Assembly: GCA_965204985.1 (NCBI GenBank)
Contig: CBDBFP010000003.1
Span: 316,027-380,026, forward strand
DNA: 64,000 nucleotides
Reading direction: 5' to 3'
DNA from: Hyphomicrobiales bacterium
Lineage (GTDB): Bacteria; Pseudomonadota; Alphaproteobacteria; Rhizobiales; CAJQND01
Below are positions 7,499-42,276 of the stretch, in pieces. The translations under genes and the position numbers were made by a program. The first letter of the stretch is position 1, and the number at the start of each line of letters is the position of its first letter. The notes below the pieces were generated by a model. It searched no databases and was not told the DNA's origin. It saw only the letters and a program-made list of their open reading frames with translations.

Positions 7499-7540
7499 GA
7501 CAACAGATGTGACAGAAACCGTCAGCCGGGGCAATGCGTG

Positions 7541-9225: not shown

Positions 9226-9226
9226 T

Positions 9227-10156: not shown

Positions 10157-10160
10157 GGTT

Positions 10161-10934: not shown

Positions 10935-10953
10935 AGGACGCTCCTCTCTCGCA

Positions 10954-11039
10954 CGTCATTCCCGCGCAGGCGGGAGTCCAGGACAGAATCACTGCGCTCT
11001 TTCGATGGGATCCGGGTGCCCGCCTCCGCGGGCATGACG
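10954..11039. repeat. 86-bp MITE/REP-like intergenic element with ~21-nt terminal inverted repeats
   Basis: The left end is cgtcattcccgcgcaggcggg. The right end is cccgcctccgcgggcatgacg, which is the reverse complement with 2 mismatches. Each arm also contains its own small GC hairpin. Confidence 0.5.
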
Positions 11040-11057
11040 ACGGAACAAGAGGCACAC

Positions 11058-12200: not shown

Positions 12201-12211
12201 GACTTTGTCCT

Positions 12212-13723
12212 TCAGATTTTGGGCGGTGGGTATTGCATCCGGTGCACGACGTCGTCCCAGGAGACATGATTGCGCACAAACTCTTTGGAGGCATCGCGTG
12301 GCGGGTTGTAATCCCATGAAGTCAGGAGCCCTGCTTCCATAGCCTGATGCACCGCCCGCCGTTGTTTCTGGGTGGCGATGATATCGACCGCAATTTTTTC
12401 AGAATCCCAGCGCTCCCGGACTTCAGCATCGAAAGCAGCCACCAGCTCCGCACGGGCTGGATCGTCTGCCAGAGTGTGCCGTTCCTCCGGATCAGCTTCG
12501 ATATCGAAGAGTTGGGCTGGATCATGGTCGCAATGGATGTATTTCCACTTGCCGCGGCGGATCATGAACAACGGTGCAGCGGGAAGGATCTCGGCACAGT
12601 ACGCACCGATAGCTTCGGTCTGGCTTTCCTTGCCTTCTGCCAATGTCGGCCAGAGAGACACCCCATCAACCGGCATGCCGAATTCATCATCGCATCCGGC
12701 AATATCAGTGAAGGTCGGCAGAATGTCAACCAGCGAACACGGTTCCGCACGTTCCTGCGCGAGCACCCCAGGACCAGCCGCGATCAAGGGCACTCGCCCG
12801 GAATGCTCGAAGAAGTTCATTTTGTACCAGAGACCGCGCTCACCCAGCATATCGCCATGGTCGGCGGTGACAAAAACGATCGTGTTGTCGAGTTGATCGG
12901 ACTCTTCCAGCGCCTGCACCACAGCACCGACTTTGGAGTCGAAATAGCTGACGTTCGCATAATAGGCATGACGCGCGTTGCGGATTTCCTCATCCGTGAC
13001 CGCCTCGGGATACGCTTCAATACCAGCCATAAGCCTTTGAGTATGAGGGTCGGTTGCGTCTGTCATGGACGGCATGTCGATAGCGTCGTGGTCGTAAAGA
13101 TCCCACCATTCTTTCCGCGCCACATAGGGGTCGTGCGGGTGGATAAAGCTGACGACCATGCAGAAGGGATCGATCTTCTCCATGGCGTATTCAAAGATCC
13201 GTCTCCGTGCAAAGAAGGCGGTTTCCTCATCATATTCGATCTGGAAAGTGGTCCCGGCAACTCCGGCCGTCCGGACGGGATCCATATTATGATAAAAATG
13301 ATCGATCCGCTCGTCCGGCAATTCCCAATCCGGCGTCCAGGCATGATCGGCCGGGTAGATATCGGTCGTTAGCCGTTCCTCAAAACCATGCAACTGGTCC
13401 GGCCCAACAAAGTGCATCTTGCCGGAAAGGCATGTGCGGTAGCCCTTGCGGCGCAGGTAATGGGCGAATGTCGGGATTGCAGCTGGAAACTCCGACGCGT
13501 TGTCATAAGCCGCTATGTTCGTCACCAGCTTGCCGGACATGAAACTGAAGCGGGACGGCGCGCAGAGCGGCGAGTTGCAATAGGCCGCATCAAAACGAGT
13601 GCCTCGAGCTGCCAGTGCATCCATGTACGGTGTCTTCACAAGCGGATGGTCATAAGTGCCAGTGAACTGCGGCGCCAATTGGTCGGCCATAATCAAAACA
13701 ATGTTAGGGGCAGAGCGGGACAT
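12212..13723 (-). CDS. betC: Choline-sulfatase
   Basis: N-terminus PNIVLIMADQL and the sulfatase active-site motif CAPSRFSFMSGK. Length and overall sequence fit BetC. Confidence 0.75.
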   Translation of the reverse strand: MSRSAPNIVLIMADQLAPQFTGTYDHPLVKTPYMDALAARGTRFDAAYCNSPLCAPSRFSFMSGKLVTNIAAYDNASEFPAAIPTFAHYLRRKGYRTCLSGKMHFVGPDQLHGFEERLTTDIYPADHAWTPDWELPDERIDHFYHNMDPVRTAGVAGTTFQIEYDEETAFFARRRIFEYAMEKIDPFCMVVSFIHPHDPYVARKEWWDLYDHDAIDMPSMTDATDPHTQRLMAGIEAYPEAVTDEEIRNARHAYYANVSYFDSKVGAVVQALEESDQLDNTIVFVTADHGDMLGERGLWYKMNFFEHSGRVPLIAAGPGVLAQERAEPCSLVDILPTFTDIAGCDDEFGMPVDGVSLWPTLAEGKESQTEAIGAYCAEILPAAPLFMIRRGKWKYIHCDHDPAQLFDIEADPEERHTLADDPARAELVAAFDAEVRERWDSEKIAVDIIATQKQRRAVHQAMEAGLLTSWDYNPPRDASKEFVRNHVSWDDVVHRMQYPPPKI

Positions 13724-20381: not shown

Positions 20382-21209
20382 ATGCCTGAAATCAATTACG
20401 ATGACCGGATCGTTTTTGATCCTGAATTGCAGATCATGGAAGTCGATTTTTCTGAACTGACGTTCGACAGGTCGAAACCCGTCAACGCCTTTTACGATGA
20501 AGCCGAGGCACGTCTGGCTGAAACCGGGAAGAAGTGGTTCTTTTTGGTAAATTATCGAGACACAACGATAATGACCGAAGCCTGGATCGCATTTGCGCAT
20601 CGCGGCAAGAAAATCAACTTGGCCTACTCACTTGGGAGCGCCAGATATTCAGCGAGCGATGACACCGGAGAAACAATCATGGAAAGATCGAAAAAGGAAA
20701 ATTTCGATCCAAACCTCTTTGACTCCCGCAAAGCTGCCGTCACTCATCTGATGGCGCTCAGGATCCAGATCCCTAAAGACGAATACGAAAAATCAATAAC
20801 GAAAGCCCCGGATGAACCGAAACTACCTGTATCAGATCGCATCATCTTTCACGACGAAATCAATGTCATGGAAGTGGATTTTAGCGACTATACCTTTGCC
20901 AACAGTGGCAACGTAAAACAGTTCTACGAGACCATCGGAGAAAAGCTCGAAGAGACCGGCCAGAAATGGTATTTTCTGGTGAATTACAACCAGACGGAAA
21001 TTCTCCCGGATGCCTGGTATCAATGGTCTATCAGTTCAAAACGGCTAAATGCCGCCTTTTCACTCGGCACCGTCCGCTTTAATGCAAAGGCAGGAACTCG
21101 CGAAAACATTCAGAAGCGTGCGAACGCTGAACACGCAGATGCAAATCTTGTGGCATCACGTGCCGAGGCGCTCTCCCGGATAGTTGCTATGAAGAATACG
21201 GAAAAATAG
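20382..21209 (+). CDS. Hypothetical protein built from two tandem homologous ~135-aa domains
   Basis: A good RBS (aaggag) lies upstream. The two halves align clearly: DRIVFDPELQIMEVDFSELTF...ETGKKWFFLVNY...AYSLGSARY versus DRIIFHDEINVMEVDFSDYTF...ETGQKWYFLVNY...AFSLGTVRF. Confidence 0.6.
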   Translation: MPEINYDDRIVFDPELQIMEVDFSELTFDRSKPVNAFYDEAEARLAETGKKWFFLVNYRDTTIMTEAWIAFAHRGKKINLAYSLGSARYSASDDTGETIMERSKKENFDPNLFDSRKAAVTHLMALRIQIPKDEYEKSITKAPDEPKLPVSDRIIFHDEINVMEVDFSDYTFANSGNVKQFYETIGEKLEETGQKWYFLVNYNQTEILPDAWYQWSISSKRLNAAFSLGTVRFNAKAGTRENIQKRANAEHADANLVASRAEALSRIVAMKNTEK

Positions 21210-21268
21210 CGAAACCTCGCTTGCTGCGAGAAATGACTCGTGCATCTGAACGGAAGTTTTGACACGTT

Positions 21269-21782
21269 TTATGCTTTCAGTGGTTTTTCCTGATAGGTCC
21301 ATGTGAAGGGCTTTGCTATTGTCTCATTGAAGGGAGCGATGGAGGTCGTGATTCTGGAGTTGAGATCCCTGATTGAGGTGAAGTTTCCACGGCGGATGGC
21401 CTTTCTAACCAGGATTGAGAACCAGATCTCAGTCTGGTTCATCCAGGAAACGTGCCCTGGGGTGAAGTGGAATGTGATGCGGCGGGTTTTACAGCTCAGG
21501 AAGGCGCGCCGACTTCCCATGGTCTTCAGGATGCCGCGTTTGCGTCTCTTATCCAGACCCAGGCCGGAGCCGCAGCGGCGGACGATCAGGTGGACTACGC
21601 TCTCGGGGACATGGATGTTGAGATTGTCGGCCATGATGCGCCATCTGGTTGTCGGGCGGTTGACTTGCGAACGGGCTGTCGAGGAAGGCGGTGAAGTCCT
21701 CTTCGGGGCGCCGCCGTTATCGTCCCGCTGGCCACATCAAAAGCGGCGATTAGGGTCTGGGTGCCGTGGCGGATATATTCAT
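21269..21782 (-). pseudogene. IS630-family transposase, 3' portion (frameshifted)
   Basis: EYIRHGTQTLIAAFDVASG and ADNLNIHV...HFTPGHVSWMNQTEIWFS are IS630/DDE_3 motifs. The two pieces are in different frames. Confidence 0.8.
21777..21782. repeat. Target-site duplication ATTCAT (left copy)
   Basis: The same hexamer occurs at 30169-30174, immediately outside the inserted block. Confidence 0.7.
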
Positions 21783-21932
21783 CCCGCATTTCCCAGGCAG
21801 TTTGCCGATCTTGCTTCGCGTGTGCTACTTTTCATGTTATATTTCAGCGTGTTATTTGGAGCTGGGCGGGTTCTGAGGGCGATTTTCGGTTGGGATTTGA
21901 CCGGCGTGTTCGGCTTGAGTTCCACGGCCCCC
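21783..21932 (+). mobile_element. IS1380-family left-end fragment (copy A, ~150 bp, truncated by low-GC cassette 1)
   Basis: Near-identical to 24698-~24870, which continues into an IS1380 transposase frame. Confidence 0.65.
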
Positions 21933-23005
21933 CTGAACGGCCCCGGCCTCTTGACCTGCCCTCTTGATTTTCAGGGCTTTTTGTCCCAGCCTGTATTACA
22001 GCTCCAGAGGGCTATGAAACCGGGAAGCAGGATATGGAAAACGCCATGAGAACAGTTGCTAAAAAAATCATAGCGCTATTGGGCGTGAGTCTGATTGTCT
22101 TTTCCAGTCTTGGGACAGGTTCCAGTTTTGGGGAAAGATATAGATCTGGTAAGTTAGGATGCGGTGATTTTGAGGATACCGAAAGACAGTATAAAGAACA
22201 ACTCCATGATCCTGATCCTTATGTGAGTGTGACCCTGGTTTATGCTCTTTGTCTTTTATTAAAGGGTGAGGTGACTAAAAATCAGGATGATGTGTCCAAG
22301 GGGATGTTGATTTTACATGGTTTGGCTGATCAACACAGCAATATTGTAGCTAATTATTGGATAGCAGAATACCATGTTTCAGGAGGGAGTTTCAACCAAA
22401 ATGTAGCTGACAAGAATTTGGATTTGGCCGCCAAGTATTATTCAAGAACACTGGCTATCATCAAGACTTATAACAGCTACCCTCCTCTTATTTACAGTAT
22501 GTGGGAGGAAACTGATAATATAGAGGACAGCTTATTATAATTTACCTCTTGTTTATTTAGAAATGTTTTATAACGGGGTTGCTGGTGACTACCGGGTTAG
22601 GTTGCTTAACTCTCCCAGTTATAAAGGAGATCGTGATTTGAAAACTTATCCTGAATACAGAGATAATATTATGGGTTATATTGATTTAGCGATAGAGCAT
22701 GCGGGGAATTGTAAAAATCTTCCTCTCAAGAGGCATTTCAATAAGCATTCTTCTTATTACATAAAGGTTTGTGCCATGTATGAGGAGAAAGCCAGGCTTT
22801 TAAAAGAAGCTTATGTGAAAAGTCAGTTTATTTTAAATCAGGACAGGTGTAAGGATATAGGATCCGATGAAACAGTTTTTGCCTATTGCCCTGAACATGA
22901 TGAGACAGAACACAAAATTATAGATACTTATAACTCTATATTTAAAGAAACTAAGAAAATACTTTACCCCATTCGTGACCTTCTTGTATCATCTCCTAAT
23001 AATTA
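21933..23005 (+). repeat. Low-GC cassette, direct copy 1 (starts CTGAACGGCCCCGGCC, ends CTCCTAATAATTA)
   Basis: It aligns along its length with 23632-24695. Confidence 0.8.
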
Positions 23006-23006
23006 G
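22034..23006 (+). pseudogene. Sel1/TPR-like repeat protein with an N-terminal signal or anchor, copy 1 (frameshifted near 22525)
   Basis: ORFs 22034-22540 and 22563-23006 together match the single ORF of copy 2. There is a 2-bp deletion relative to copy 2 (gaggacagcttattataa versus gagatgatatcttattataat). Confidence 0.7.
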
Positions 23007-23519
23007 GATCTATAAAAACCCTCTTTTTTCAGCATAGAGTAAATGCCTCGTACAGGACGCACCGCTCTCCGGTCCCGGTCTTCCCGGACCCCTGCTTGCG
23101 AGGTCGGCGCGCGGGACCGAAAGGGTAAAACCGTTCTGCCTTGGTTGTCCCGGTTCCGGGCCCTGATCGCCGGCGCCGCAGCCCTTGTTGAGCTTGTCCC
23201 TGGTTTCCCTGCAGTTGCTGGCGCTTGATGGACGATCATACTCTGCTGCTGACAGCTTGATGTCATTGGCTGGGCCCAGAGAAATCGTTCATGAACAGAT
23301 GTTCATGAACCTCCCTGATTCAATTGCAGAGCTTGCGGTCATGTAAGAAATTTCAAGTTTCCTTGCACGTAATAACAGTCACCTATGCGGAATATGGACC
23401 TGAATTCAGAAATATGAACGGCACATACGGTTGTCAGTGTTCGTTCACGGAGGCCCTGTCACAGTGCTGCGTCATCGTCAATCAGAATGGCGAACGAAAA
23501 GCAGAAAGGAGATCTAATC

Positions 23520-23631
23520 ATGAAAAAGTCCCGTCGAATAGCCGCTGCTGCGGCAGTATCCCTGACTTTACTGACGAGTGCCTCGGCTCCGGCTTCTGCT
23601 GTCCTCCCGTCGGACCTCCAGCGTCCTGCTT
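23520..23631 (+). pseudogene. 5' stub of a secreted-protein gene, truncated by cassette copy 2
   Basis: An aaggag RBS 9 nt upstream of the ATG, followed by MKKSRRIAAAAAVSLTLLTSASAPASA (a signal peptide with an AxA site). The frame runs straight into the cassette boundary. Confidence 0.45.
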
Positions 23632-24695
23632 CTGAACGGCCCCGGCCCCTCGGCCCGCCCTCTTGCAGGGCTTTTTGTCCCAGCCTGTATTACAGCTCCA
23701 GAGGGCTATGAAACCGGGAAGCAGGATATGGAAGACGCCATGAGAACAGTTGCTAAAAAAATCATAGCGCTATTGGGCGTGAGTCTGATTGTCTTTTCCA
23801 GTCTTGGGACAGGTTCCAGTTTTGGGGAAAGATATAGATCTGGTAAATTTGGATGTGATTTTGAGGAAGAAGAAAAAGCTTATATGGAACAACTCCATGA
23901 TCCTGATCCTTATGTGAGTGTGACCTTAGTTTATGCTATTTGTCTTTTATTAAAGGGTGAGGTGACTAAAAATCAAGATGATGTGTCCAAGGGGATGTTG
24001 ATTTTACATGGTTTGGCTGATCAACACAGCAATATTGTAGCTAATTATTGGATAGCAGAATACCATCTTTCAGGAGGAGATTTCAAAAGTATAGCTGACA
24101 AGAATTTGGATTTAGCCGCCATGTATTATTCAAGAACACTGGCTATCATCAAGACTTATAATAGCTACCCTCCTCTTATTTACAGTATATGGGAGGAAAC
24201 TGATAATATAGAGATGATATCTTATTATAATTTACCTCTTGCTTATTTAGAAATGTTTTATAACGGGGTTGCTGGTGACTACCGGGTTAGGTTGCTTAAC
24301 TCTCCCAGTTATAAAGGAGATCGTGACTTAAAAACTTATCCTGAATACAGAGATAATATTATGGGTTATATTGATTTAGCGATAGAGCATGCGGGGAATT
24401 GTAAAAATCTTCCTCTTAAGAGACATTTCCGGAAGTCTTCTGATTCTTATTACATAAAGGTTTGTGCTATGTATGAGGAGAAAGCTAAGCTTTTAAAAGA
24501 AGCTTATGTGAAAAGCAGTTTATTTTAAATCAGGACAGGTGTAAGGATATAGGATCCGATGAGACAGTTTTTGCCTATTGTCCTGAAATTGATGAGGCAG
24601 AATTGAAAATTGTCAATACTTATTACTCTATATTTAAAGAAGTTAAGGAAATACTTTACCCTATTCGTGACCCTTGTATCATCTCCTAATAATTA
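23632..24695 (+). repeat. Low-GC cassette, direct copy 2
   Basis: Same ends and content as 21933-23005. Confidence 0.8.
23728..24693 (+). pseudogene. Sel1/TPR-like repeat protein, copy 2 (frameshifted near 24517 and again near 24670)
   Basis: Intact through the position where copy 1 is broken. There is a 1-bp deletion relative to copy 1 (aaaagcagttta versus aaaagtcagttta). The C-terminal ~55 codons remain recognisable out of frame. Confidence 0.7.
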
Positions 24696-24697
24696 AG

Positions 24698-25740
24698 CCC
24701 GCATTTCCCAGGCAGTTTGCTGATCTTGCTTCGCGTGTGCTACTTTTCATGTTATATTTCAGCGTGTTATTGGGCGCTGGGCGGGTTTCATGGCACACTC
24801 AAAGGGGGCAGGTTCTGAGGGCGGTTTTCGGTTGGGATTTGACCGGCGTTTCGGCTTGAGTTCCACGGCTCCAGGATCGGCTCCGATGGCGGCCTGCTGC
24901 CCTTTCGGGAGGTGGACGAGGTGTTGGGGCTGCACGATCTGGCAGGCCACTCACTGCAGGACACGCGGCGTGGCAAGAAGGGCAGTCACACGCTTGTCGG
25001 TCTTCTGCGGCAGTCTGCCTTTGGGCGGCTTGCCGGATATCCAGACGTCAATGACGCCGGGCGTCTCGCGCGTGATCCTGTCATGCGCCAGATCGTGGGC
25101 GGTCGCGCGGTCGATGGATTGACAGGAGGCATGACGCGCCCCCACGGCGATCGGGAAGGCACGGCCTGGAACGGTCACTTCGGGTGCAAATGCCATCATC
25201 CCCTCTTTGTGTTCAACCAGTCTGGCGATCTTGAGCGCTGCGCCCTGCGCAAGGGCAATGTCCACAGCGCCGATGGCTGGAAGGAGGTTCTGGCCTCTGT
25301 CATCGCCCGATACAAGGGGCGCGACCTGATGCGGTTCTTTCGGGCCGATGCCGCCTTTGCCCTCCCGGAGCTTTACGAGATGCTGGAAGCGGAAGGTTAT
25401 TTCCACACCATCCGCCTGAAGGGCAACAATGTGCTTCAGGAGATCGCCGACTGGTCCCTGACCAGCATTCAAAGTCGCCGTGTCAAAATTGGCGCGCGTG
25501 GTGTGCGTCATGCCCGTGCCATCCCCTTCCAACTGGCCGGGGTTGCGGTGCCCCGCAACATCTTCGGAAAAATCCTGGCCGCCATCCGCCCCCTCAAACC
25601 ACCGCCGAGGCCCGCCTGACGGGCAACATGTGCGAAGCTGAGCAAAAGCGGCTCGATACCTGTGTTATGCGGACGGCAAAAAGCCCGGACTCGGCGGAAA
25701 GCCGTGGCGCCCCGAACCCTGCGTTCGCCTGGGTGTCGTG
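24698..25740 (+). mobile_element. IS1380-family element, copy B, with a defective transposase; the right boundary is approximate
   Basis: The left end is identical in type to 21783. The transposase C-terminus ILAAIRPLKPPPRPA ends at 25619. The right inverted repeat is not clearly recognisable. Confidence 0.65.
24790..25619 (+). pseudogene. IS1380-family transposase with an N-terminal frameshift and a large internal deletion
   Basis: Motifs seen: RLEFHGSRIGSDGGLLPFREVDEVLGL, RQSAFGRLAGYPDVNDAGRLARDPVMRQIVG, and HPLFVFNQSGDLERCALRKGNVHSADGW. About 275 codons in total, against the ~450 I recall for the family. The junction is at VLQEIAD/WSLTS. Confidence 0.75.
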
Positions 25741-26913
25741 TCGCCCTTCTGCGACAACCAGACATTGTCGATGCTCGCTGATCTCACCAGCGCCAAAAAA
25801 CCACCGATATTCATCGGACGCTCCGACGAACTTGCGCCGGTGCCAAGCTCCACGCTCGACGGCTTCGGTCGCGTGGCTGTGCTCGACGAAATGGCGACCA
25901 CAGAAGACGGAGAAGAGGCCGATGCGATCGCATTGCAGGGGCTTCATGCCAAGGCTTTCATCGCCGAGCGCGGTTGGGACACCGCAATCACGGTCGGCTC
26001 CGGAAACGCCACGCGACCCGCCCTCGACGGAAGCAATGTCGAGATATTTGCGACCCTGACCGGCAAGCGATCGCGAGTCGGCAGTGTTGAGGAAATTCTC
26101 GGCGACAAGGGCTTCGGCCGGTTGACACGACCATTCGTCCGCGACGAGCTGAGTGATGAGCTGCTTAGTGCCAATGCTGCCCGACGACAGGCAGAGAGGC
26201 GATTGGACCTGGCCCGGCGCGAGATTTGCCGCAGCAACCTCCGGCTCCGTTGCGAACGCACGGAGCCTGCCGATGACGGCACGCCGACCTGGCGGGTCTT
26301 TTTGGTCCCGTCCGGGCCGCTCTCCCTTGCCGGGGTCGGCCGCCTGCGTGTTTGGCCGATCACGCGGGGCGCTGGTCATGAGCGCAACGCGCTCGGTCCA
26401 CTCCGGCTAGGACAGTGCGCCGACCTGGGAGCAATGCCGCTGGTCGACCTTACGCGCTTCCTTGCCTTTCACCTCACAGACCAGGAAAAGGAGGATGTCT
26501 CCCTCCTGTTCAGCACCGGGCTCGTTATGGATGGACTGCCCTCCGAGGAGCGTCGCGCCGCGATCCTGCGCTGGGTGATCGACAGCAAGGATACCTTCTT
26601 CCGGTATCTCCGGCTGCTTCTCTCCGAGCCGGGGGATCCGTTTGCCGCCGCGCTGGCCGCCCAGGATGGACAAGGTCATGGCGCATGGCGCACTGCAAGC
26701 GACGACTCGCCCATCCTTGAGGAAATGGTCCGCGCCTTCTGCCGAGGCGGCGATCAGGATCAGCTCCGCGCCATCGAACGGCTGATCGCACGTCTGAAGA
26801 GTGGAGACGACGATCGCACCGATCCGATTCCGGACGAGTTCCGCTCTCTCTGGGAGACATTTCGGATTGCGCGCGACGCGCAGCCCGCGCAGGATGCCTC
26901 CCATGCCGACTGA
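25738..26913 (+). CDS. PLD-family (single HKD) nuclease-like protein with a ~260-aa uncharacterised C-terminal region; probably 5'-truncated
   Basis: HKD motif LHAKAFIAE...GSGNAT at nt 25945-26006. There is no ATG or SD at the 5' end; the tracked start is a GTG directly abutting IS1380 sequence. The stop overlaps the helicase start. Confidence 0.65.
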   Translation: MSPFCDNQTLSMLADLTSAKKPPIFIGRSDELAPVPSSTLDGFGRVAVLDEMATTEDGEEADAIALQGLHAKAFIAERGWDTAITVGSGNATRPALDGSNVEIFATLTGKRSRVGSVEEILGDKGFGRLTRPFVRDELSDELLSANAARRQAERRLDLARREICRSNLRLRCERTEPADDGTPTWRVFLVPSGPLSLAGVGRLRVWPITRGAGHERNALGPLRLGQCADLGAMPLVDLTRFLAFHLTDQEKEDVSLLFSTGLVMDGLPSEERRAAILRWVIDSKDTFFRYLRLLLSEPGDPFAAALAAQDGQGHGAWRTASDDSPILEEMVRAFCRGGDQDQLRAIERLIARLKSGDDDRTDPIPDEFRSLWETFRIARDAQPAQDASHAD

Positions 26914-29900
26914 ACGGTTCCGCGCCGAAACGGCACTCGCTCCCCTCAAGGTCTTTCAGCGGCGCACCGTCGATTATGTCTTCGACCGGCTCTATTGCCC
27001 GAACGACCCTGTCCGCCAGTTCCTGGTCGCTGACGAAGCCGGTCTTGGCAAGACGATGGTGGCGCGCGGGGTCATTGCCCGCATGATCGAACATCTTTGG
27101 GACAGCACGAAACGCATCGACATCCTCTATATCTGCTCGAACCAAGCGATCGCGGCCCAGAACCTCAACCGACTGAACGTCCTCGGCCGCCGCGAGCTGG
27201 CCCGGCCAACCCGAATGACCCTCATTCCGCTGCAACTGGAAGGCCTCGACGCCAACAAGGTGAACTTCATCAGCTTGACGCCGGGCACGACCTTCAATTT
27301 GAGCTCCGCGACCGGGGTGGTGCAGGAACGCGCCCTCCTGTTCCATCTCCTGCAAGACCTCGTTCCCCGGCCCCGTGGACTGCGCAACCTGTTGCAGGTC
27401 AATGTCGGCATCGACGGCTGGAACCGCGCCGTGGACAACCTAGCTGTCGACGGCGTTGACAAGCACATCATCGAGCGCTTTCGCCGCGACGTGCAGGAGA
27501 ATCGAAATCTCTTCGAGGAACTTGAGAGTGTCTGTGACCTCTTCCCGCGCCGTCGTGACAGCTATCCCCCGGACAGGACGCAGCGCCGCAATAGCCTGAT
27601 CGATCGACTGCGCGCCAAGCTGTCCCACGCCTGCGTGGACGCGCTACAGCCGGATCTGATCATCATGGATGAGTTTCAGCGGTTTCGGGACTTGCTGCAC
27701 GGTGGAAGCGACGCTGCGATCCTCGCGCGCGAACTGTTCGACTACTCCGGGACCGAGGGGCACTCGGCCCGCACCCTGCTGCTATCCGCGACCCCCTACC
27801 GGATGCTCACGCTCCGCGGCGATGAACCCGACGAAGACGATCACTATGAAGATTTCCTCAAGACATTGCGTTTTCTCTACGGAGAGAAAGGGCCGGAGGT
27901 GGCGCACACGCTGACCAGAGAAATGCGGGCCTTCCGCGACCATTTGCGTCGTCTCCCGCAATCGCAATCGTATGATCTGGCAGTTGCGGCGCGTGAGACC
28001 ATCGAACAGCGGCTGCGCAGGGTGATGGCACGAACCGAACGCGTCGCGTCCACGATTGAACGCGACTCCATGATGGACGAACCGACCATACCTGTTTCGG
28101 TCGCGCCCGCTGACCTCACGCAGGCATCCGCCGTTTCGCAAGTGGCGCACAGGCTCAATGCCCCGGAGATCATCGAATACTGGAAATCCTCGCCCTACCT
28201 GCTCAACTTCATGCATCACTACAAACTGAAGCAACTGCTGCGGGCGCAGATCGACGTTCCTTCTGCGCCGCTCCCGCTCCGCAATGCAATCCGAGCGGCA
28301 CGATCAGCTATGCTCGATCGCGATGCGATCGACGGCTACGAGCCGCTGGAGCCCCCGAACGGCCGCATGCGGGCGATCATTGACGACATATTCGATCGGC
28401 GTCTCGAACAGAATCTCTGGATACCCGCCGCCATGCCCTATTATGGCGCTGCGCGATCCGATCCTCCGCTGACAAAGGCGCTAATATTCTCTTCCTGGTC
28501 CATGGTTCCCGATGCGATCGCTGCCCTTCTGTCCTACGAAGCAGAACGGCGCATGGGGGTCGGAGAATCCGGCCGACCTTATTCCGAGCAGCATCATCAC
28601 TTGAGACCCTTGCAGTTCCGGCGGAATCAGGGACGGCTCGCCGGCCTTCGCGCGCTTTTGCTAATTTATCCATCACCGTCTCTGGCGGAACTGGCGGATC
28701 CGCTCGCGGTCTTCGCCGAGACCAAGACGACGTTGTCGCAGAAAGCCATGCGTTTAGCGATCGGCAAGCGGCTCAAGCCCCACCTCGAAGCGCTGCAACG
28801 CGCCGCAACTCCACGGAAGGACGCGGGCAGCGCCGAATGGGCCGCACCCGCCATGATCGACGATATGCGAGACACACGCTCCCGCGCATGGCTACTAGGG
28901 GAGTCTGACGGAATGGGCGCCTTGGCAAGCGAAGATGCTTTCCAGGCCCATGTCGCCAAATTGGCGACGACAGCGGCGAACCGCGACATTGACGCCTCAA
29001 CTGCCAATCTTTCCGAACTCCTCGTCGATGTGGCGCTAGGCAGCCCGGCGGTTTGTGCGCTTCGCGCTCTCAAAAGGATCGCGCCTGAGTTGGAATGGGA
29101 TGACTGCCGCTTGCTGAGCGCCGCTGCCCGGGTCGCATGGTCCTTCCGGACCTTGTTCAACCAGCATGATGCGGTTGCACTGCTCCGCCGGGGTGCCGAC
29201 GATCGCTACTGGCATCGCGTGCTGACCTATTGCGCGGACCACAATCTCCAGGCGGTCCTTGACGAATACGCCCATTATCTTGTCGAGGCCGAAGGCCTAG
29301 GGGTTCGTCCGGCAGGGGAACGTGCGGTTGGCGTGGGAAAGGCGATGGCTTCGGCCCTGGCCATCCTCCCGTCGCAGATCGAGGTTGACGACGTGCAGGT
29401 CGATGGTGAATCGCTCGCGATCCGCAAATTTCGTATGCGTGGGCGCTTCGCGATGCGGCTCGCCGACTACAGGGACGAGGAAGGCGCAGTCGCCCGTCTC
29501 GGGGTGGTGCGGGATGCGTTCAACTCACCGTTCCGGCCTTTCGTTCTCGCGACGACGTCCGTTGGTCAAGAAGGGCTCGACTTCCATCCCTATTGTTACC
29601 ACGTCTACCACTGGAACCTTCCGAGTAACCCAGTGGACCTGGAGCAACGCGAGGGCCGCGTCCATCGGTTCAAGGGCCACGCGATACGCCTCAATCTGGC
29701 GGAACGCCAAGCCGGCGTCGTCCGGGGCCGTGGTCAGTCACCCGACGATCCGTGGAAACTGATGTTCGAACAGGCACGATCGGAGGCGGCGGTCGACAAC
29801 GATCACAACGATCTTATCCCCTATTGGATCTACGAGGGTTCTGTCCGGGTTGAACGGCGTGTACCGATGCTGCCTTTCAGTCGGGAAATTACACGACTCG

Positions 29901-30073
29901 CTTGGCTCAAGCGCAGCCTCACGGTCTATCGCCTAGCCTTCGGCCAGCAGCGGCAGGACGATCTGCTGGATTACCTGCAATCCCTCGTCGGCACAGGCAT
30001 GGACACCTCCAGGCTCGACAAGCTGCAAATTAGTCTCGAACCACCGGAACTTCCCGACGAGTCAGAACGATAG
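26894..30073 (+). CDS. SNF2/DrmD-like superfamily-2 helicase (~1059 aa)
   Basis: Motif I ADEAGLGKT (27041-27055), II DEFQ (27668-27679), III SATP (27785-27796), VI QREGRVHR (29645-29668). The start is ATG 26894 or 26903. Confidence 0.8.
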   Translation: MPPMPTERFRAETALAPLKVFQRRTVDYVFDRLYCPNDPVRQFLVADEAGLGKTMVARGVIARMIEHLWDSTKRIDILYICSNQAIAAQNLNRLNVLGRRELARPTRMTLIPLQLEGLDANKVNFISLTPGTTFNLSSATGVVQERALLFHLLQDLVPRPRGLRNLLQVNVGIDGWNRAVDNLAVDGVDKHIIERFRRDVQENRNLFEELESVCDLFPRRRDSYPPDRTQRRNSLIDRLRAKLSHACVDALQPDLIIMDEFQRFRDLLHGGSDAAILARELFDYSGTEGHSARTLLLSATPYRMLTLRGDEPDEDDHYEDFLKTLRFLYGEKGPEVAHTLTREMRAFRDHLRRLPQSQSYDLAVAARETIEQRLRRVMARTERVASTIERDSMMDEPTIPVSVAPADLTQASAVSQVAHRLNAPEIIEYWKSSPYLLNFMHHYKLKQLLRAQIDVPSAPLPLRNAIRAARSAMLDRDAIDGYEPLEPPNGRMRAIIDDIFDRRLEQNLWIPAAMPYYGAARSDPPLTKALIFSSWSMVPDAIAALLSYEAERRMGVGESGRPYSEQHHHLRPLQFRRNQGRLAGLRALLLIYPSPSLAELADPLAVFAETKTTLSQKAMRLAIGKRLKPHLEALQRAATPRKDAGSAEWAAPAMIDDMRDTRSRAWLLGESDGMGALASEDAFQAHVAKLATTAANRDIDASTANLSELLVDVALGSPAVCALRALKRIAPELEWDDCRLLSAAARVAWSFRTLFNQHDAVALLRRGADDRYWHRVLTYCADHNLQAVLDEYAHYLVEAEGLGVRPAGERAVGVGKAMASALAILPSQIEVDDVQVDGESLAIRKFRMRGRFAMRLADYRDEEGAVARLGVVRDAFNSPFRPFVLATTSVGQEGLDFHPYCYHVYHWNLPSNPVDLEQREGRVHRFKGHAIRLNLAERQAGVVRGRGQSPDDPWKLMFEQARSEAAVDNDHNDLIPYWIYEGSVRVERRVPMLPFSREITRLAWLKRSLTVYRLAFGQQRQDDLLDYLQSLVGTGMDTSRLDKLQISLEPPELPDESER

Positions 30074-30168
30074 ATATACCCAACCTGGCCGCGCTGCAGC
30101 GTGCGGGGAACCTGGCAGGCACTGCAGTGGCTCCCATAGCCCTATTCGTTTCAACGCGAGAATCAGGA

Positions 30169-30174
30169 ATTCAT
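30169..30174. repeat. Target-site duplication ATTCAT (right copy)
   Basis: Identical hexamer to 21777-21782. Confidence 0.7.
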
Positions 30175-30639
30175 ACTCCCTGCAGGCAACCCGTCCCGGT
30201 GCCGGAGGCAGATCGGGCATTGCACGCTCAAGGGCCCGGATAGCCCCATCTCATCAATCCTGAGGGTGCGGATGCCGACCTCGGCGAAGCCTGGGTCTCG
30301 TCATAGACCCGGACGACATCGGCACATTTGTCAGCAAACAGCGGCTCTGGCTTGGCAGTCAGCCAGAACCGGAAGCGGTGGAGCTTAAGGCTGGATTCTT
30401 TTCAAAAAACGCTCTACCGAGCGCTGCGAAACTTCATCCACAATGCCACGTCTCTCCGCCTCATCAGCCAGGTCCTGCCGGCTTCAGAGGCTGACCGGCA
30501 GGCCTCTCGCGGACGGCTGCTCACAAGCCAGCGCCGCCCGCTCACCGTCTTGCGCCACACCCCGGGCTTCGCCGGCGTAACCGCCCAAGTTCAGATCGTT
30601 CTTCAGAGGACAAAAATGCGACCAGGTCGACGGCCATAA
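30169..30639 (-). pseudogene. IS630-family transposase, 5' portion (multiple frameshifts)
   Basis: Minus-strand translation in shifting frames gives MAVDLVAFLSSEERSELGRLRR, VDEVSQRSVERFLKRIQ, LKLHRFRFWLTAKPEPLFADKCADVVRVYDE, and AIRALERAMPDLPPAPGRVACREYE. Confidence 0.75.
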
Positions 30640-30910
30640 AATCCTCCTGTGATCAGCGAATCAGACCACAGAAAATCAAAAATCCATCAAATCCTCAAAC
30701 AAAATCAAAGAGTCACAACTTCCGTTCAGGTGCACTAGGGCATTGAATAACTGCGCCCTTGCGAGTTGTAGCCCGCTGTCCTAGTCTACGGTATCTGAAT
30801 GGGCCGGATCTTTGATATTTTGCAACAGTAACAACCTGTGGGCAAAAATTTCTGGCTGCATAAGATTGGCGTGGCATTAAGCGCACATTTGCTTCATTGG
30901 AGGACATTTA

Positions 30911-39995: not shown

Positions 39996-40875
39996 TCAAC
40001 GGCCCTCAGGTTTGCCCGTTTTGGGTCCAATCGCGAGGTGATTTTCAAAGAGGCGGTTGGAGAGCCCGTTCTCCCGAAGAGATTGCCAGACCTTCCCGAC
40101 CCGATTGAGCCCCGGTGATCTGGCGGGCAGAAAGGTCAGGGTCTCCGGCCCCTTCACCTCGCCGGAGGTGTGCCCCGGCGCGCGGGCCATCGGGACGGCG
40201 GCCTGAGCGCCTTTTGCAACGGGCCGGCTGATCTCCTTGAGAGGCAGGTTCCTTGTTCCAGTGTCCGCCCATAGCACTATGGCAGCATGGCCGCGCCGGT
40301 CTCCCTGTCTGCGCACACCGCGCCGGACAGGCAGGCCGATTTGTAACGCTGATCGGCCGGCCATCGCGGTCTCGTCCCCTTGCGCGCCCGGATGCGGCCG
40401 CGGCCGGTCTTCTGGCCGATGCGGGCCTCGTCCTGAACCCGGACCTCGATCGGCCTGTCTGCCGGACCGTGGTTCAAAGGGGAGGCAAGGCTTTGGGGGA
40501 CGTTTTTTGAAAGCCTCCATGAGGCCCGGGTTCTGGTCCGGGTGTTGCGGGCGCCCGGTGAGGCGGGAAAAGCCGGGCGCTGCAGGCAGCCTGGGAGGGT
40601 CCTCTCGTGAGAAACAACACCGAACCGGTCTTCGCTCCCCCGTTGAAGGTCAAGTCGTCTCCAGCGGACCCCACCCCCCTTCGCCGCATCCGCCCGGCTC
40701 ATCCCGTCATAAACACAAGCAAGCGAAAGCAAACGCCGGGCCTGACGGAGATCTTCGCTCATCCTGGCAAGGCTGCGAAGGGGCAAAGCATCATAGTCGT
40801 CACGACCGCCAACAGTTGCAGACACCGGAAATCCTCCCTTGTCTGCATGGATCCAGAGTGCAGCCGGGTTGAAAG
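39996..40875 (-). pseudogene. Degenerate IS630-family transposase copy (frameshifts and internal deletion)
   Basis: C-terminal motif LTFLPARSPGLNRVGKVWQSLRENGLSNRLF and an N-terminal MSEDLRQARRLLSLACVYDGMSRADAA. The pieces lie in different frames. Confidence 0.65.
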
Positions 40876-40879
40876 GGCC

Positions 40880-41942
40880 TGAGAGACAATCAATCATACC
40901 ATCGCTCACTGCTCCCACCCGATGGTCCCATTCGCGCCCTCCGATTGAGAGGACGCGCCCTGGTTGATGCCTGAGGGTGTTCCAGGCTTGGCAGCAGTGA
41001 TCTGCGATGTCGTCGCAGGTCTTGAAAACGAGGGTCGAAAGCCAGGTGTCCCGGATGAACGGCCAGACGTTCCCGACCGGGTTCACCTCTGGTGCCCCTG
41101 GCGGCCGTGGGACGAGGGTGATGTTGTCGGGGACAGCCCCTTTGGGTGAGCTCTGCCCTCCCGCCCGATCAGGGATCAGGAGGGCGTGTACCCCGGCCTC
41201 GACCTGTTGACTGATGAGCTTGAGAGGCTCAGCCATGGGGTGAGTGTCGCACCAGGGCATGCCCCGCCCGTCGCCGTTGGCCCTGGCAGGGCAGAGGGCG
41301 CCGAAGAGACAGGCCCCTTCGGTCCGCTGATCGTGCGGCGCGCGGGGCCGCGTCCCCCGTTGCGCCCGGCGTCGCGTGCGTTTGTTCTTCTGACCCATCC
41401 GGGCGTCGTCCTGAACCCGGAGCTCTATCGGCTTGCCGCCCCATTGGCTGCGGATGCGGTCGACGACGTCGCAGACGTTTTGTTGAACGCCTCGCTGGCC
41501 CCGTCGTGCTGTGCGTCGTGCTGCGGGCGGGCGGAGAGCTGGCGAACCCCAGGGCGACCCCGATGGCGACCCCGATGGCGCGAAGGTCCCGTCCCGGCGT
41601 CTGACGACTGACCGGGACGCCCGGGTCCTCCTGCGCCCCCTGCGCTCCCTGCGCCAGATCGACCCGCTGCCAGCGCACGATGCCGTCCATATCGGGCCTT
41701 GGCCCCGCCTCAACAGTCGCTGCCAGCGCCGTGCGGTGTTCGTCTGTCAGGATCGGCGTCTTTGCGGGCGCCTTGCGTGTCACCAGGGCCTCCGCGCCGC
41801 CGGCCTTGAAGCGTAACACCCGGTCCCGGATCACCGCCAAGGCAAGAAGCTGCCGCGTCTGATCCGCCTCTTCGCTCTTGCGGGCTGTGCGAGGCAGGTC
41901 ATCGCCCAGAAAGTCCGCTCTCGGTTGAACAGCTGCTGCCAT
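40880..41942 (-). pseudogene. Second degenerate IS630-family transposase copy, in tandem and in the same orientation
   Basis: Fragments seen: MAAAVQPRADFLGDDL..., IELRVQDDARMGQKN, and LVPRPPGAPEVNPVGNVWPFIRDTWLS. The N- and C-parts are in different frames. Confidence 0.65.
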
Positions 41943-42276
41943 GGAAAACCTCCCTTGTTTTCCATGCTGAAGCAGGCCGAACATCGATTGGGACCCCCCT
42001 CGGAGAGCCTGAGCCAGTCAGCCGCAGTATTACGGTTGGCATGGAAGGCAACTATGACGGCATCGGTGCAAAGGACTTCGATGCTGTGGGTGGTTCCGTA
42101 AAAATCAGCGTGCCTTTGAACCAAGGCGATTTTTGCCAAGGGCTTACGAAAACACTTTCCCGATTCGTTCGGGGCGCGTAATAAGTGCCCCAAATGGGGC
42201 ATTGTCGCCGTGCGGTCGTTTCCACGTCATAAGGTATCGCCTCTTTCCCGAAGCTTGAAAGAACGAGGCAGAAAAA

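What the first reader, a model, noticed from the sequence alone, without database searches (positions are those of the whole stretch)
25738..30073. Translationally coupled PLD(HKD) nuclease-like gene and SNF2/DrmD-like helicase carried as IS cargo: candidate stand-alone defence pair
Seen in the sequence:
- ORF 25738-26913 carries a single HKD motif (LHAKAFIAE...GSGNAT, nt 25945-26006). It is followed by ~260 aa with no motif I can name.
- Its TGA (26911-26913) overlaps the candidate ATGs (26894 or 26903) of a ~1059-aa ORF.
- That ORF has SF2 motifs: ADEAGLGKT, DEFQ, SATP and QREGRVHR. About 570 aa separate the two RecA-like lobes.
- G+C is about 62% on a counted line, against about 53% in the flanking backbone.
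- The pair sits inside a transposition unit.

Established knowledge:
- Single-HKD PLD proteins such as Nuc and BfiI are nucleases.
- PLD plus SNF2-like helicase pairings occur as parts of DISARM (DrmC/DrmD) and of the Dpd cluster (DpdK/DpdJ).
- Mokosh pairs PLD with an Upf1-like SF1 helicase, not an SNF2-like one.

Inference: no drmA, drmB, methyltransferase or dpdA-C genes are present in or around the unit. So this is either an uncharacterised minimal helicase-nuclease immunity module or a mobilised fragment of a larger system.
Basis: partly seen in the sequence, partly recalled or inferred. Interest (0 to 1): 0.85.

Follow-up and report, generated by a model that had tools for sequence, protein, structure and literature searches.

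The report
Truncated Azaca defence operon on transposon
The nuclease-like gene and helicase gene are the leftover two-thirds of a known three-gene anti-phage system called Azaca, which lost its first gene and half of its nuclease gene in a 2-kb deletion while riding on an insertion-sequence transposition unit, so it is most likely a dead remnant and not a new immune system.

Summary
The sequence features are real. The proposed new stand-alone defence pair is not supported.

**What the genes are**
- The helicase ORF is a full-length ZacC (PADLOC E=0, profile 4-1016/1019).
- The PLD ORF is ZacB, but it matches only profile positions 233-582 of 586.
- Intact relatives always carry zacA (DUF6361, 392 aa), zacB (618-630 aa, two HKD motifs) and zacC.

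**How it was truncated**
- A sister metagenome contig (L061, 97% nt identity) has the same IS1380-like pseudogene followed by complete zacABC.
- The window differs from it by one 1,983-bp deletion with CGGA microhomology.
- The deletion removed the IS right end, all of zacA and zacB codons 1-221, including the first HKD motif.
- No zacA or zacB 5' part exists elsewhere in the 64 kb.

**Why it is probably inactive**
- For a distant Azaca homologue, published biochemistry shows that ZacB+ZacC without ZacA does not cleave DNA.

**Mobile context**
- The "IS cargo" observation holds. An 8.4-kb unit (21783-30168) starts with a genuine IS1380-family left inverted repeat.
- It is flanked by an ATTCAT duplication and splits an IS630-family transposase gene.
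- This resembles ISEcp1-style one-ended transposition.

Verdict: a decayed member of a known system. Interest is low.

The parts
21237..21782 (-). Left portion of a split IS630-family element: terminal inverted repeat 21237-21268 and the C-terminal part of its transposase gene (about aa 190 to the end; ORF 21269-21634 plus upstream frames to 21782).
   Evidence: The inverted-repeat pair 21237-21268 / 30707-30738 is 32 nt and 84% complementary. Pfam DDE_3 matches. tblastn of the Dietzia IS630 transposase hits aa 204-227 and 285-345. The frames read ...DEYIRHGTQTLIAAFDVASG.
21777..21782 (.). Left copy of the ATTCAT direct repeat. This is the target-site duplication of the 8.4-kb unit; between 4 and 6 bp of it may be true duplication.
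   Evidence: Sequence. Removing one copy restores a continuous IS630 transposase reading frame.
21783..21968 (+). IS1380-family left end, copy 1: the left inverted repeat CCCGCATTTCCCAGG plus about 190 bp of 5' sequence (transposase codons about 7-40 only). This is the left boundary of the transposition unit.
   Evidence: It is a direct repeat of 24692-24872 (D6, D8, D18). The left inverted repeat matches CCCGCATTTCCCAAG of an intact Phaeobacter IS1380-family element. tblastn hits aa 7-27.
21969..23005 (+). Low-GC (37.8%) cargo gene, copy 1. It encodes a secreted-looking protein with no family match and is split into two ORFs (22034-22540 and 22563-23006).
   Evidence: No Pfam, PADLOC or NCBIfam hit for copy 2 of this gene (ORF 23578-24528), which is the copy that was scanned.
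23006..23662 (.). Unassigned 657-bp spacer between the two low-GC gene copies. Its last 34 bp repeat 21933-21966.
   Evidence: D12. No IS1380 or IS630 protein similarity.
23663..24695 (+). Low-GC (36.5%) cargo gene, copy 2, with a frameshift near its 3' end. The same gene lies directly left of the IS1380-like element in the sister contig L061.
24696..25685 (+). IS1380-family element, copy 2: left inverted repeat (GCCCGCATTTCCCAGG from 24697) and a decayed transposase pseudogene (24790-25619; about 195 codons missing, with frameshifts). Its right end, including the right inverted repeat, has been deleted.
   Evidence: Pfam DDE_Tnp_1_4 at 3.5e-48. NCBIfam IS1380 at 119.9 bits, below the cutoff of 180. 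blastn to ISKpn23/IS1247-like elements covers 812 nt against 1338 nt in the records. tblastn. The right inverted repeat of L061 lies at 1646-1659, inside the segment missing from the window.
25686..25689 (.). Deletion junction with microhomology CGGA (CGGAaTCG / CGGAcTCG). Relative to L061, 1,983 bp are missing: the IS right end, the spacer, zacA and zacB codons 1-221.
   Evidence: blastn shows L061 1-1535 = window 24164-25693 and L061 3511-5003 = window 25686-27178.
25687..26913 (+). zacB' : the 5'-truncated PLD-family nuclease gene of Azaca (residues 222-618 of the full protein). It keeps only the second HKD motif (nt 25942-26013). The first in-frame start is GTG 25738 (about residue 239), or ATG 25771 as called in the source genome.
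   Evidence: PADLOC ZacB at 2.5e-81, profile 233-582/586. tblastn covers aa 222-618 at 79.5% identity. It is 94% identical to the full-length P0121. P0001 is the 380-aa call in the source genome.
26903..30073 (+). zacC: an intact SF2 helicase/NTPase gene of Azaca (1056 aa; the alternative start is ATG 26894). It overlaps the zacB' stop by 11 or 20 nt. Walker A, DEFQ, SAT and motifs V and VI are all present.
   Evidence: PADLOC ZacC at E=0, 1130.7 bits, profile 4-1016/1019. tblastn gives 80.6% identity over aa 1-1045. Motifs. Pfam DEAD and Helicase_C.
30074..30168 (.). 95-bp tail after zacC, ending at the right boundary of the transposition unit. The last bases ...GCGAGAATCAGGA resemble an IS1380 right inverted repeat only weakly (about 7 of 14).
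   Evidence: Sequence, compared with the L061 right inverted repeat TGGGAAATATCGGG. The weak match is my own reading.
30169..30174 (.). Right copy of the ATTCAT direct repeat (target-site duplication).
30169..30738 (-). Right portion of the split IS630-family element: the N-terminal part of the transposase gene (start about 30637; frameshifted) and terminal inverted repeat 30707-30738.
   Evidence: Frames read MAVDLVAFLSSEERSELGRL......KLHRFRFWLTAKPEPLFADKCADVVRVY... and ...PGRVACREYE. The reconstruction aligns to the Dietzia IS630 transposase aa 181-227 across the junction at E=1.2e-14.

Best explanation
The pair is a remnant of an Azaca (ZacABC) anti-phage operon carried on an IS1380-family transposition unit.

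**What intact Azaca is**
- It is a three-protein complex. ZacA is a DUF6361 protein, ZacB is a two-HKD PLD-family nuclease, and ZacC is a large SF2 helicase/NTPase.
- For a distant homologue (BmAzaca), published work shows ATP-site-dependent cleavage of phage T4 DNA.

**What happened in this lineage**
- The operon lay immediately downstream of an IS1380-like element, as the sister contig L061 shows.
- A single 1,983-bp deletion at a CGGA microhomology then removed the IS right end, all of zacA and zacB codons 1-221.
- What is left is a promoterless-looking zacB' ORF and an intact zacC. zacB' lacks the first HKD motif and the first strands of the second PLD lobe.

**Mobile context**
- The whole 8.4-kb block runs from an IS1380 left inverted repeat at 21783 to 95 bp past zacC at 30168.
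- It inserted as one unit into an IS630-family transposase gene and duplicated ATTCAT.
- This is the pattern of ISEcp1-type one-ended transposition.

**Shown**
- Family identity, the truncation, the deletion junction, the absence of zacA from the window, and the unit boundaries and duplication.

**Inferred**
- The remnant no longer confers defence.
- The deletion is evolutionarily recent. No stop codon or frameshift is seen in 4.3 kb, and all 150 highly conserved ZacB columns are retained.
- Mobilisation used an IS1380 transposase supplied earlier or in trans.
For: **Family identity**
- PADLOC: ORF2 is ZacC (E=0, full length). ORF1 is ZacB, but only profile positions 233-582 of 586.
- The intact homologue in L001 gives ZacA 7.5e-137, ZacB profile 2-584/586, and ZacC.
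- ZacA is Pfam DUF6361.

**Truncation**
- tblastn: ZacB aa 222-618 maps to window 25687-26910.
- Nothing in the 64 kb matches ZacA or ZacB aa 1-221.
- Every one of the 50 related loci with enough upstream DNA has zacA plus a 618-aa zacB. L045 is the only exception.
- Nearly all of the listed database homologues are 615-624 aa. The few shorter ones lie mostly on short contigs.

**Deletion**
- The sister contig L061 carries IS1380 pseudogene, zacA, zacB (630 aa) and zacC, at 97.1% and 90.8% nt identity to the window on the two sides of a 1,983-bp gap.
- The junction registers show CGGA microhomology.

**Two-HKD architecture**
- The N-terminal H-P-K...SRNLT-D motif and the C-terminal H-A-K...GSGNAT motif are both invariant or nearly invariant.
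- The AlphaFold model (pLDDT 74.5) matches PLD-fold nucleases SauUSI and R.NgoAVII, and the two-PLD-domain enzyme PPK.

**Function of the intact system**
- Only ZacABC cleaves T4 DNA. Single proteins and pairs, including ZacBC, are inactive. The ZacC Walker A motif is required (bioRxiv 10.1101/2025.07.10.664194).

**Transposition unit**
- The left inverted repeat CCCGCATTTCCCAGG matches that of an intact IS1380-family element.
- ATTCAT lies at 21777-21782 and 30169-30174.
- The reconstructed IS630 aligns across the junction in one frame at E=1.2e-14.
- ISEcp1, an IS1380-family member, is known to perform one-ended transposition with imperfect right ends (PMC12589106).

**Expression signals**
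- No promoter-like site lies upstream of zacB'.
- No Shine-Dalgarno sequence is visible before GTG 25738 or ATG 25771 (my own reading).
Against: - zacB' and zacC carry no stop codon or frameshift.
- zacB' deviates at none of 150 highly conserved columns. Continued selection on the remnant therefore cannot be excluded.
- ISEcp1-like elements can supply outward promoters (established knowledge), so transcription of the remnant is plausible.
- The biochemical requirement for all three proteins was shown for a distant homologue (BmAzaca), not for this clade.
- The rest of the 2.7-Mb source genome was not available, so a zacA or full zacB elsewhere cannot be ruled out.
- The right end of the unit resembles an IS1380 right inverted repeat only weakly.
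- The unit's internal structure is not fully explained. It has two left inverted repeat copies, a duplicated low-GC gene and an unassigned 657-bp spacer.
- No second insertion site of the same unit was found.
Confidence: 0.9

Rival explanations
1. The truncated pair is a functional stand-alone two-gene defence module. In this reading the single-HKD ZacB' homodimerises like Nuc or BfiI to rebuild a PLD active site, and it works with ZacC without ZacA.
For: - Both ORFs are open and the zacB'-zacC overlap is preserved.
- The conserved residues of the retained ZacB part are all intact.
- Single-HKD nucleases that act as homodimers exist (established knowledge: Nuc, BfiI).
Against: - No homologue shows this architecture as a recurrent form.
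- The sister contig shows it arose from a simple 2-kb deletion.
- The deletion also removes strands predicted to belong to the second PLD lobe (model residues 205-221, and up to 239 if translation starts at the GTG).
- The full-length ZacBC pair without ZacA is inactive in vitro.
- No start-site signals are visible.
Confidence: 0.04
2. The remnant is complemented in trans. Under this reading zacC, and perhaps zacB', still works with a zacA or full zacB encoded elsewhere in the source genome. Alternatively, zacC is kept as an orphan helicase with another role.
For: - zacC is full length with all its helicase motifs.
- The same arrangement is present at 99.8% identity in an independent metagenome assembly, so it persists in a population.
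Against: - No other zac gene or PADLOC-recognised defence gene was found in the 64-kb window.
- ZacC carries 32 private substitutions at positions where 39 relatives are identical, more than any other lineage (the next highest has 19). Several are radical: G32C, P228R, G312D, G868V.
- That excess is compatible with relaxed constraint, but it is confounded by the window's long branch.
Confidence: 0.07
3. The pair is a fragment of a DISARM (DrmC/DrmD) or Dpd (DpdK/DpdJ/DpdE) system.
For: There are weak local hits of the helicase C-terminal motifs to DrmD, DrmA, DpdE and BrxH models.
Against: - These hits cover only about 50 residues (motifs V-VI) and score 20-48 bits, against cutoffs of 500-950.
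- ZacC scores 1130.7 bits over the whole length.
- The PLD ORF hits only ZacB.
- Homologous loci contain zacA and no drm or dpd genes.
Confidence: 0.01
4. The truncation is an assembly artefact of the source contig, and the organism really has intact zacABC.
For: - The junction lies next to repeated IS sequence, where assemblies can collapse.
- Only one source contig (2.7 Mb) carries this exact zacB' sequence.
Against: - The junction is a clean microhomology deletion inside unique sequence, not at a repeat boundary.
- The deleted segment has no second copy in the window.
- The gene caller of the source record also produced a 380-aa product.
Confidence: 0.03

Closest known systems
Azaca defence system (ZacA/ZacB/ZacC; named by Millman et al. 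2022 as cited in PMC10952713; biochemistry in bioRxiv 10.1101/2025.07.10.664194)
   Same: - ZacC is full length, and the C-terminal two-thirds of ZacB match the PADLOC family models end to end.
- The gene order and the overlapping zacB-zacC junction are as in intact homologues.
- The closest relative (L061) is a complete zacABC.
   Different: - zacA is absent.
- zacB lacks residues 1-221, including the first HKD motif.
- The locus therefore does not meet the three-gene composition of the system and is best called an Azaca remnant.
ISEcp1-type transposition units of the IS1380 family (one-ended transposition that mobilises adjacent downstream genes, e.g. blaCTX-M)
   Same: - A genuine IS1380-family left inverted repeat sits at the left boundary.
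- The cargo lies downstream in the same orientation.
- The right boundary resembles a right inverted repeat only weakly.
- A short direct duplication flanks the whole unit.
- The insertion cleanly interrupts a target gene.
   Different: - The cargo is a phage-defence operon plus an unknown low-GC gene, not a resistance gene.
- The transposase is a pseudogene.
- One IS copy is reduced to 190 bp and the other has lost its right inverted repeat.
- The repeat is 6 bp (ATTCAT), whereas ISEcp1 makes 5 bp and the L061 copy shows 4 bp (TTAA).
SauUSI-type ATP-dependent, modification-dependent (type IV) restriction enzymes
   Same: - They combine a PLD-family nuclease with an SF2 helicase/ATPase.
- SauUSI is the best structural match of the modelled ZacB.
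- Azaca prefers glucosyl-hydroxymethylcytosine T4 DNA.
   Different: - SauUSI is a single polypeptide with its own modified-cytosine reader domain.
- Azaca splits the functions over three proteins.
- There is no detectable sequence similarity. This is a resemblance in how it works, not membership.
DISARM DrmC/DrmD and Dpd DpdK/DpdJ pairs
   Same: A PLD-family protein is encoded next to a large SF2 helicase.
   Different: - Family models fail by more than tenfold in score.
- No drmA, drmB, drmMI or dpdA-C genes occur in the window or in homologous loci.

Membership tests
Azaca (ZacABC) | ZacC: a large SF2 helicase/NTPase matching the ZacC family model over its full length | tested here: met
   PADLOC PDLC03830 at E=0, 1130.7 bits, profile 4-1016/1019. 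The helicase motifs are present.
Azaca (ZacABC) | ZacB: a full-length PLD-family nuclease (about 618 aa) with both HKD-type motifs | tested here: not met
   Only profile positions 233-582 of 586 are matched. Homology starts at residue 222. The first motif (H-P-K...SRNLT-D), nearly invariant in 24-35 homologues, is missing.
Azaca (ZacABC) | ZacA (DUF6361) encoded immediately upstream of zacB | tested here: not met
   No tblastn match to ZacA anywhere in the 64-kb window (best E=0.5). It is present in all comparable loci and in the sister contig L061.
Azaca (ZacABC) | Protection against phage, or ZacABC-dependent cleavage of phage DNA | not testable with these tools
   Known only for BmAzaca and KpAzaca.
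IS1380-family transposition unit (ISEcp1-like) | IS1380-family left inverted repeat at one boundary and an IS1380-family DDE transposase gene reading towards the cargo | tested here: met
   The left inverted repeat matches that of an intact Phaeobacter element. Pfam DDE_Tnp_1_4 at 3.5e-48. However, the gene is a pseudogene: 119.9 bits against the NCBIfam cutoff of 180, with about 195 codons missing.
IS1380-family transposition unit (ISEcp1-like) | Short target-site duplication flanking the entire unit, with target sequence continuous once the unit is removed | tested here: met
   ATTCAT at 21777-21782 and 30169-30174. The reconstructed IS630 transposase aligns across the junction in one HSP at E=1.2e-14.
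IS1380-family transposition unit (ISEcp1-like) | Recognisable surrogate right inverted repeat at the right boundary | tested here: inconclusive
   About 7 of 14 matches to the L061 right inverted repeat by eye. No second insertion of the same unit was found to confirm the boundary.
DISARM DrmD / Dpd DpdE (SNF2-like helicases) | Score above the curated family cutoff | tested here: not met
   NCBIfam DrmD 40.9 bits against 610, DrmD_b 28.1 against 950, and DpdE 48.3 against 500. No Pfam SNF2 domain.

The most novel reading that the evidence does not exclude
The zacB'-zacC remnant might be retained because it still does something. The truncated single-HKD ZacB' could homodimerise and, with ZacC, form a ZacA-independent minimal nuclease-helicase module. 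Alternatively, zacC alone could act as an orphan translocase. The evidence does not exclude this: both ORFs are intact, the conserved ZacB residues are all preserved, and the arrangement persists in an independent metagenome assembly.
Probability: 0.05. Interest if true: 0.5.

Novelty: already known. Interest (0 to 1): 0.15.

Why it matters
- This finding removes a false lead. A "PLD plus helicase pair with no partner genes" looked like a new minimal immune system. It is a degraded copy of Azaca, and automated defence-finders requiring three genes would correctly skip it.
- It has modest documentary value. It shows a defence operon riding on an IS1380-type, ISEcp1-like transposition unit nested in another IS. 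It also shows how such cargo decays by a microhomology deletion next to the IS.
- The more useful lead came from the comparison set and lies outside the window. An AddB-like and AddA-like gene pair sits immediately upstream of zacA in most alphaproteobacterial Azaca loci.

Tried and rejected
**Ideas withdrawn or rejected**
1. I first supposed the IS1380-like element had inserted into zacB, and I proposed a right inverted repeat at 25657-25672. I withdrew this. L061 shows the true right inverted repeat (TGGGAAATATCGGG, with a TTAA duplication) lying inside the segment deleted from the window, so the truncation is a deletion.
2. DISARM or Dpd membership is rejected on family scores.

**Searches that led nowhere**
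3. Exact look-ups of the window's ZacC (starts at 26894 and 26903) and of P0001 returned no contig. The source organism stayed unnamed.
4. Metagenome scans found nothing for the reconstructed uninterrupted IS630 junction (GGCGGATATATTCATACTCCCTGCAG) or for the unit's right end (TTCGTTTCAACGCGAGAATCAGGA).
5. A profile search of ZacB against PDB sequences found no relative. Only the fold comparison did.
6. Millman et al. 2022 is not held under its journal DOI, and the bioRxiv version does not use the name Azaca.

**Tests that stayed inconclusive**
7. I tested for relaxed selection. ZacB' has 0 deviations in 150 conserved columns. ZacC has 32 private changes in 686 columns. The result is inconclusive because the window lies on the longest branch.
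8. The 657-bp spacer 23006-23662 and the origin of the tandem arrangement of the low-GC gene were not resolved.

Full report
**Observation**

The two ORFs exist as described: 25738-26913 (391 aa) and 26801-30073.
- The HKD motif LHAKAF...GSGNAT lies at nt 25942-26013.
- The helicase motifs, numbered from Met 26894, are ADEAGLGKT (aa 46), DEFQ (259), SATP (298), TSVGQEGLD (888) and QREGRVHR (918). About 570-590 residues therefore separate the two RecA lobes.
- The zacB' TGA (26911-26913) overlaps ATG 26894 and ATG 26903.
- G+C is 62.2% across 25686-30073, against 55.1-55.5% in the backbone.

**Identity**

Pfam alone is uninformative. It gives no hit for ORF1, and only DEAD, Helicase_C and sub-threshold ResIII for ORF2. 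PADLOC models identify both proteins.
- ORF2 is ZacC: E=0, 1130.7 bits, profile positions 4-1016 of 1019.
- ORF1 is ZacB at E=2.5e-81, but only profile positions 233-582 of 586 are matched.
- DrmD, DrmA, DpdE and BrxH hits are confined to about 50 residues around helicase motifs V-VI, at up to 37 bits.
- NCBIfam gives DrmD 40.9 bits (cutoff 610) and DpdE 48.3 bits (cutoff 500).

The pair therefore belongs to Azaca, not to DISARM or Dpd.

**What intact relatives look like**

A scan of one genome per species returned 50 loci with ZacC at 77-81% identity to the window. Most are Alphaproteobacteria.
- In Aquamicrobium soli (L001) the layout is zacA 6996-8174 (392 aa), zacB 8164-10020 (618 aa) and zacC 10001-13153, with overlapping junctions.
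- These are ZacA (7.5e-137), full-length ZacB (profile 2-584/586) and ZacC by PADLOC. ZacA is Pfam DUF6361.
- Every locus with enough upstream DNA carries zacA and a full-length zacB. The one exception, L045, is cut at residue 293 and joined to unrelated DNA in a MAG contig.
- Nearly all of the 120 listed database homologues of ZacB are 615-624 aa. The few shorter ones lie mostly on short contigs.
- A Ralstonia megaplasmid record annotates the trio as hypothetical protein, phospholipase D family protein and helicase, next to an ATP-binding protein and a SIR2 gene.

**The truncation**

- tblastn with L001 proteins places ZacB residues 222-618 at window 25687-26910 (79.5% identity) and ZacC residues 1-1045 at 26894-30043 (80.6%).
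- It finds no ZacA and no ZacB residues 1-221 anywhere in the 64 kb.
- The reading frame upstream of the GTG already reads GLGGKPWRPEPCVRLGVVSPFCD, as in intact ZacB.
- In alignments of 26 and 35 homologues, an N-terminal H-P-K...S-R-N-L-T-x-D motif (residues 117-148) is invariant or nearly so. So is the C-terminal H-A-K...G-S-G-N-A-T motif.
- ZacB is thus a two-HKD PLD protein, and the window's copy retains only the second motif.
- An AlphaFold model of a full-length homologue (mean pLDDT 74.5, pTM 0.76) is matched by the PLD-fold nucleases SauUSI and R.NgoAVII. It is also matched over 357 columns by polyphosphate kinase, which contains two PLD-like domains.
- In that model the strands at residues 205-221 precede the retained part. 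Starting at GTG 25738 (about residue 239) would lose one more strand. This is an inference from a medium-confidence model.

**How the truncation arose**

The 90%-identity cluster of the window's ZacB' contains a 630-aa member, P0121. It is encoded on metagenome contig L061.
- L061 reads: 3' end of a low-GC gene, an IS1380-like transposase pseudogene, zacA (DUF6361), zacB (630 aa), then the start of zacC.
- L061 1-1535 matches window 24164-25693 (90.8%), and L061 3511-5003 matches window 25686-27178 (97.1%).
- Base-by-base registers show that the window equals the L061 arrangement minus 1,983 bp. The junction has a CGGA microhomology (CGGAaTCG / CGGAcTCG).
- The deleted segment contains the IS right end, the spacer, all of zacA and zacB codons 1-221.
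- In L061 the IS is bounded by GCCCGCATTTCCCA and TGGGAAATATCGGG, with a TTAA duplication.
- The truncation is therefore a simple deletion next to the IS, not an insertion into zacB.

**Mobile context**

- A 32-nt inverted repeat pair (21237-21268 and 30707-30738) brackets the region.
- Next to the left arm is the C-terminal part of an IS630-family (DDE_3) transposase gene on the minus strand.
- Next to the right arm is its frameshifted N-terminal part.
- The two halves end and resume at ...PGRVACREYE | YIRHGTQTL..., and ATTCAT is present at both junctions (21777-21782 and 30169-30174).
- After joining the halves with one ATTCAT copy, a Dietzia IS630 transposase aligns across the junction in a single HSP (aa 181-227, E=1.2e-14). 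Before joining, only aa 204-227 aligned.
- The inserted 8.4-kb block begins at 21783 with CCCGCATTTCCCAGG. This matches the left inverted repeat of an intact Phaeobacter IS1380-family element, CCCGCATTTCCCAAG.
- The block ends 95 bp after zacC, in sequence that resembles an IS1380 right end only weakly.
- ISEcp1 belongs to the IS1380 family. It is documented to mobilise downstream DNA by one-ended transposition using imperfect right ends (PMC12589106).

Inside the unit there are, in order:
- a 190-bp IS1380 left-end fragment;
- two diverged, disrupted copies of a 37%-GC gene with no family match;
- an unassigned 657-bp spacer;
- the second IS1380 copy, whose transposase gene lacks about 195 codons.

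The same zacC-IS630-transporter junction occurs at 99.8% identity in an independent metagenome assembly.

The surrounding genes are metabolic: branched-chain amino-acid ABC transporters, acyl-CoA enzymes and a formate-dehydrogenase-like complex. None hits a PADLOC model, and the window contains no tRNA gene.

**Mechanism and functional state**

For BmAzaca, a preprint reports more than 10^6-fold protection against T4 and preferential cleavage of T4 DNA.
- Activity is lost when the ZacC Walker A motif is mutated.
- Single proteins and pairs, ZacBC included, show no activity. Only ZacABC cleaves (bioRxiv 10.1101/2025.07.10.664194).

The window's remnant lacks ZacA and half of the ZacB catalytic core.
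- No promoter-like site lies upstream.
- I see no Shine-Dalgarno sequence before GTG 25738 or ATG 25771.

I therefore infer that it does not confer defence (confidence about 0.8 for inactivity, 0.9 for the identification).

The deletion looks recent.
- There is no stop codon or frameshift in 4.3 kb.
- ZacB' deviates at none of 150 highly conserved columns.
- ZacC has 32 private substitutions at positions where 39 relatives agree, more than any other lineage. The window also sits on the longest branch, so this is inconclusive.

**Comparison and verdict**

This is a degraded member of a known system on a known type of mobile element.
- It works like, or once worked like, a split ATP-dependent PLD-helicase restriction enzyme. 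That is conceptually close to SauUSI, but without sequence similarity.
- It fails two of the three compositional criteria for a complete Azaca system.
- Interest is low.

The most interesting by-product lies outside the window. In 26 of 34 loci with 10 kb of upstream sequence, an AddB-like and an AddA-like gene sit immediately upstream of zacA. Spacing is conserved and identity co-varies with the zac genes.

Noticed in passing
L001:939-6991 and the equivalent positions in L002-L050 (not in the window): An AddB-like gene (884 aa, PD-(D/E)XK) and an AddA-like gene (1133 aa, UvrD helicase plus PD-(D/E)XK) lie immediately upstream of zacA. The AddA-like protein scores 300 bits on NCBIfam addA_alphas against a cutoff of 861. 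This holds in 26 of 34 loci with 10 kb of upstream DNA. In L001 the genes overlap or are 4 nt apart, and identity co-varies with the zac genes (65-100%). The five genes are 88-100% identical across several alphaproteobacterial orders, which points to a horizontally spread five-gene cassette that may be an unrecognised Azaca variant.
   Followed up: partly
window 21969-23005 and 23663-24695: These are two diverged copies (89-98% identity) of a 37%-GC gene for a roughly 320-aa protein with an N-terminal signal-like segment. Copy 2, the one scanned, has no Pfam, NCBIfam or PADLOC match. Each copy carries one disruption. In L061 the same gene lies directly left of the IS1380-like element, so it was zacA's neighbour before the IS inserted.
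   Followed up: partly
window 23006-23662: This 657-bp spacer between the two low-GC gene copies has no detectable similarity to the IS1380 or IS630 proteins tested. Its last 34 bp repeat 21933-21966. The rearrangement that produced the layout (left inverted repeat fragment, gene, spacer, gene, second IS copy) is unexplained.
   Followed up: no
window 27915-27930: A 16-nt sequence inside zacC (CCAGAGAAATGCGGGC) is 88% complementary to the IS1380 left inverted repeat (I10 and I16). It is therefore a right-inverted-repeat-like site that could serve as an alternative end for one-ended transposition. It is probably a chance match.
   Followed up: no
window 40277-41984 (minus strand): A second, different IS630-family element (DDE_3 plus HTH_32 ORFs) sits in a 64-68% G+C patch between metabolic genes.
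   Followed up: partly
L045:8596-10020: This is another truncated zacB (homology from residue 293), joined to unrelated DNA carrying a SecF-like membrane gene on the opposite strand. The contig is from a MAG and may be chimeric. The breakpoint differs from the window's.
   Followed up: partly
window 20382-21209: A 275-aa ORF lies between the ABC-transporter ATPase gene and the IS630 left end. It looks like an internally duplicated protein, has no Pfam or PADLOC match, and is conserved in related metagenome contigs.
   Followed up: no
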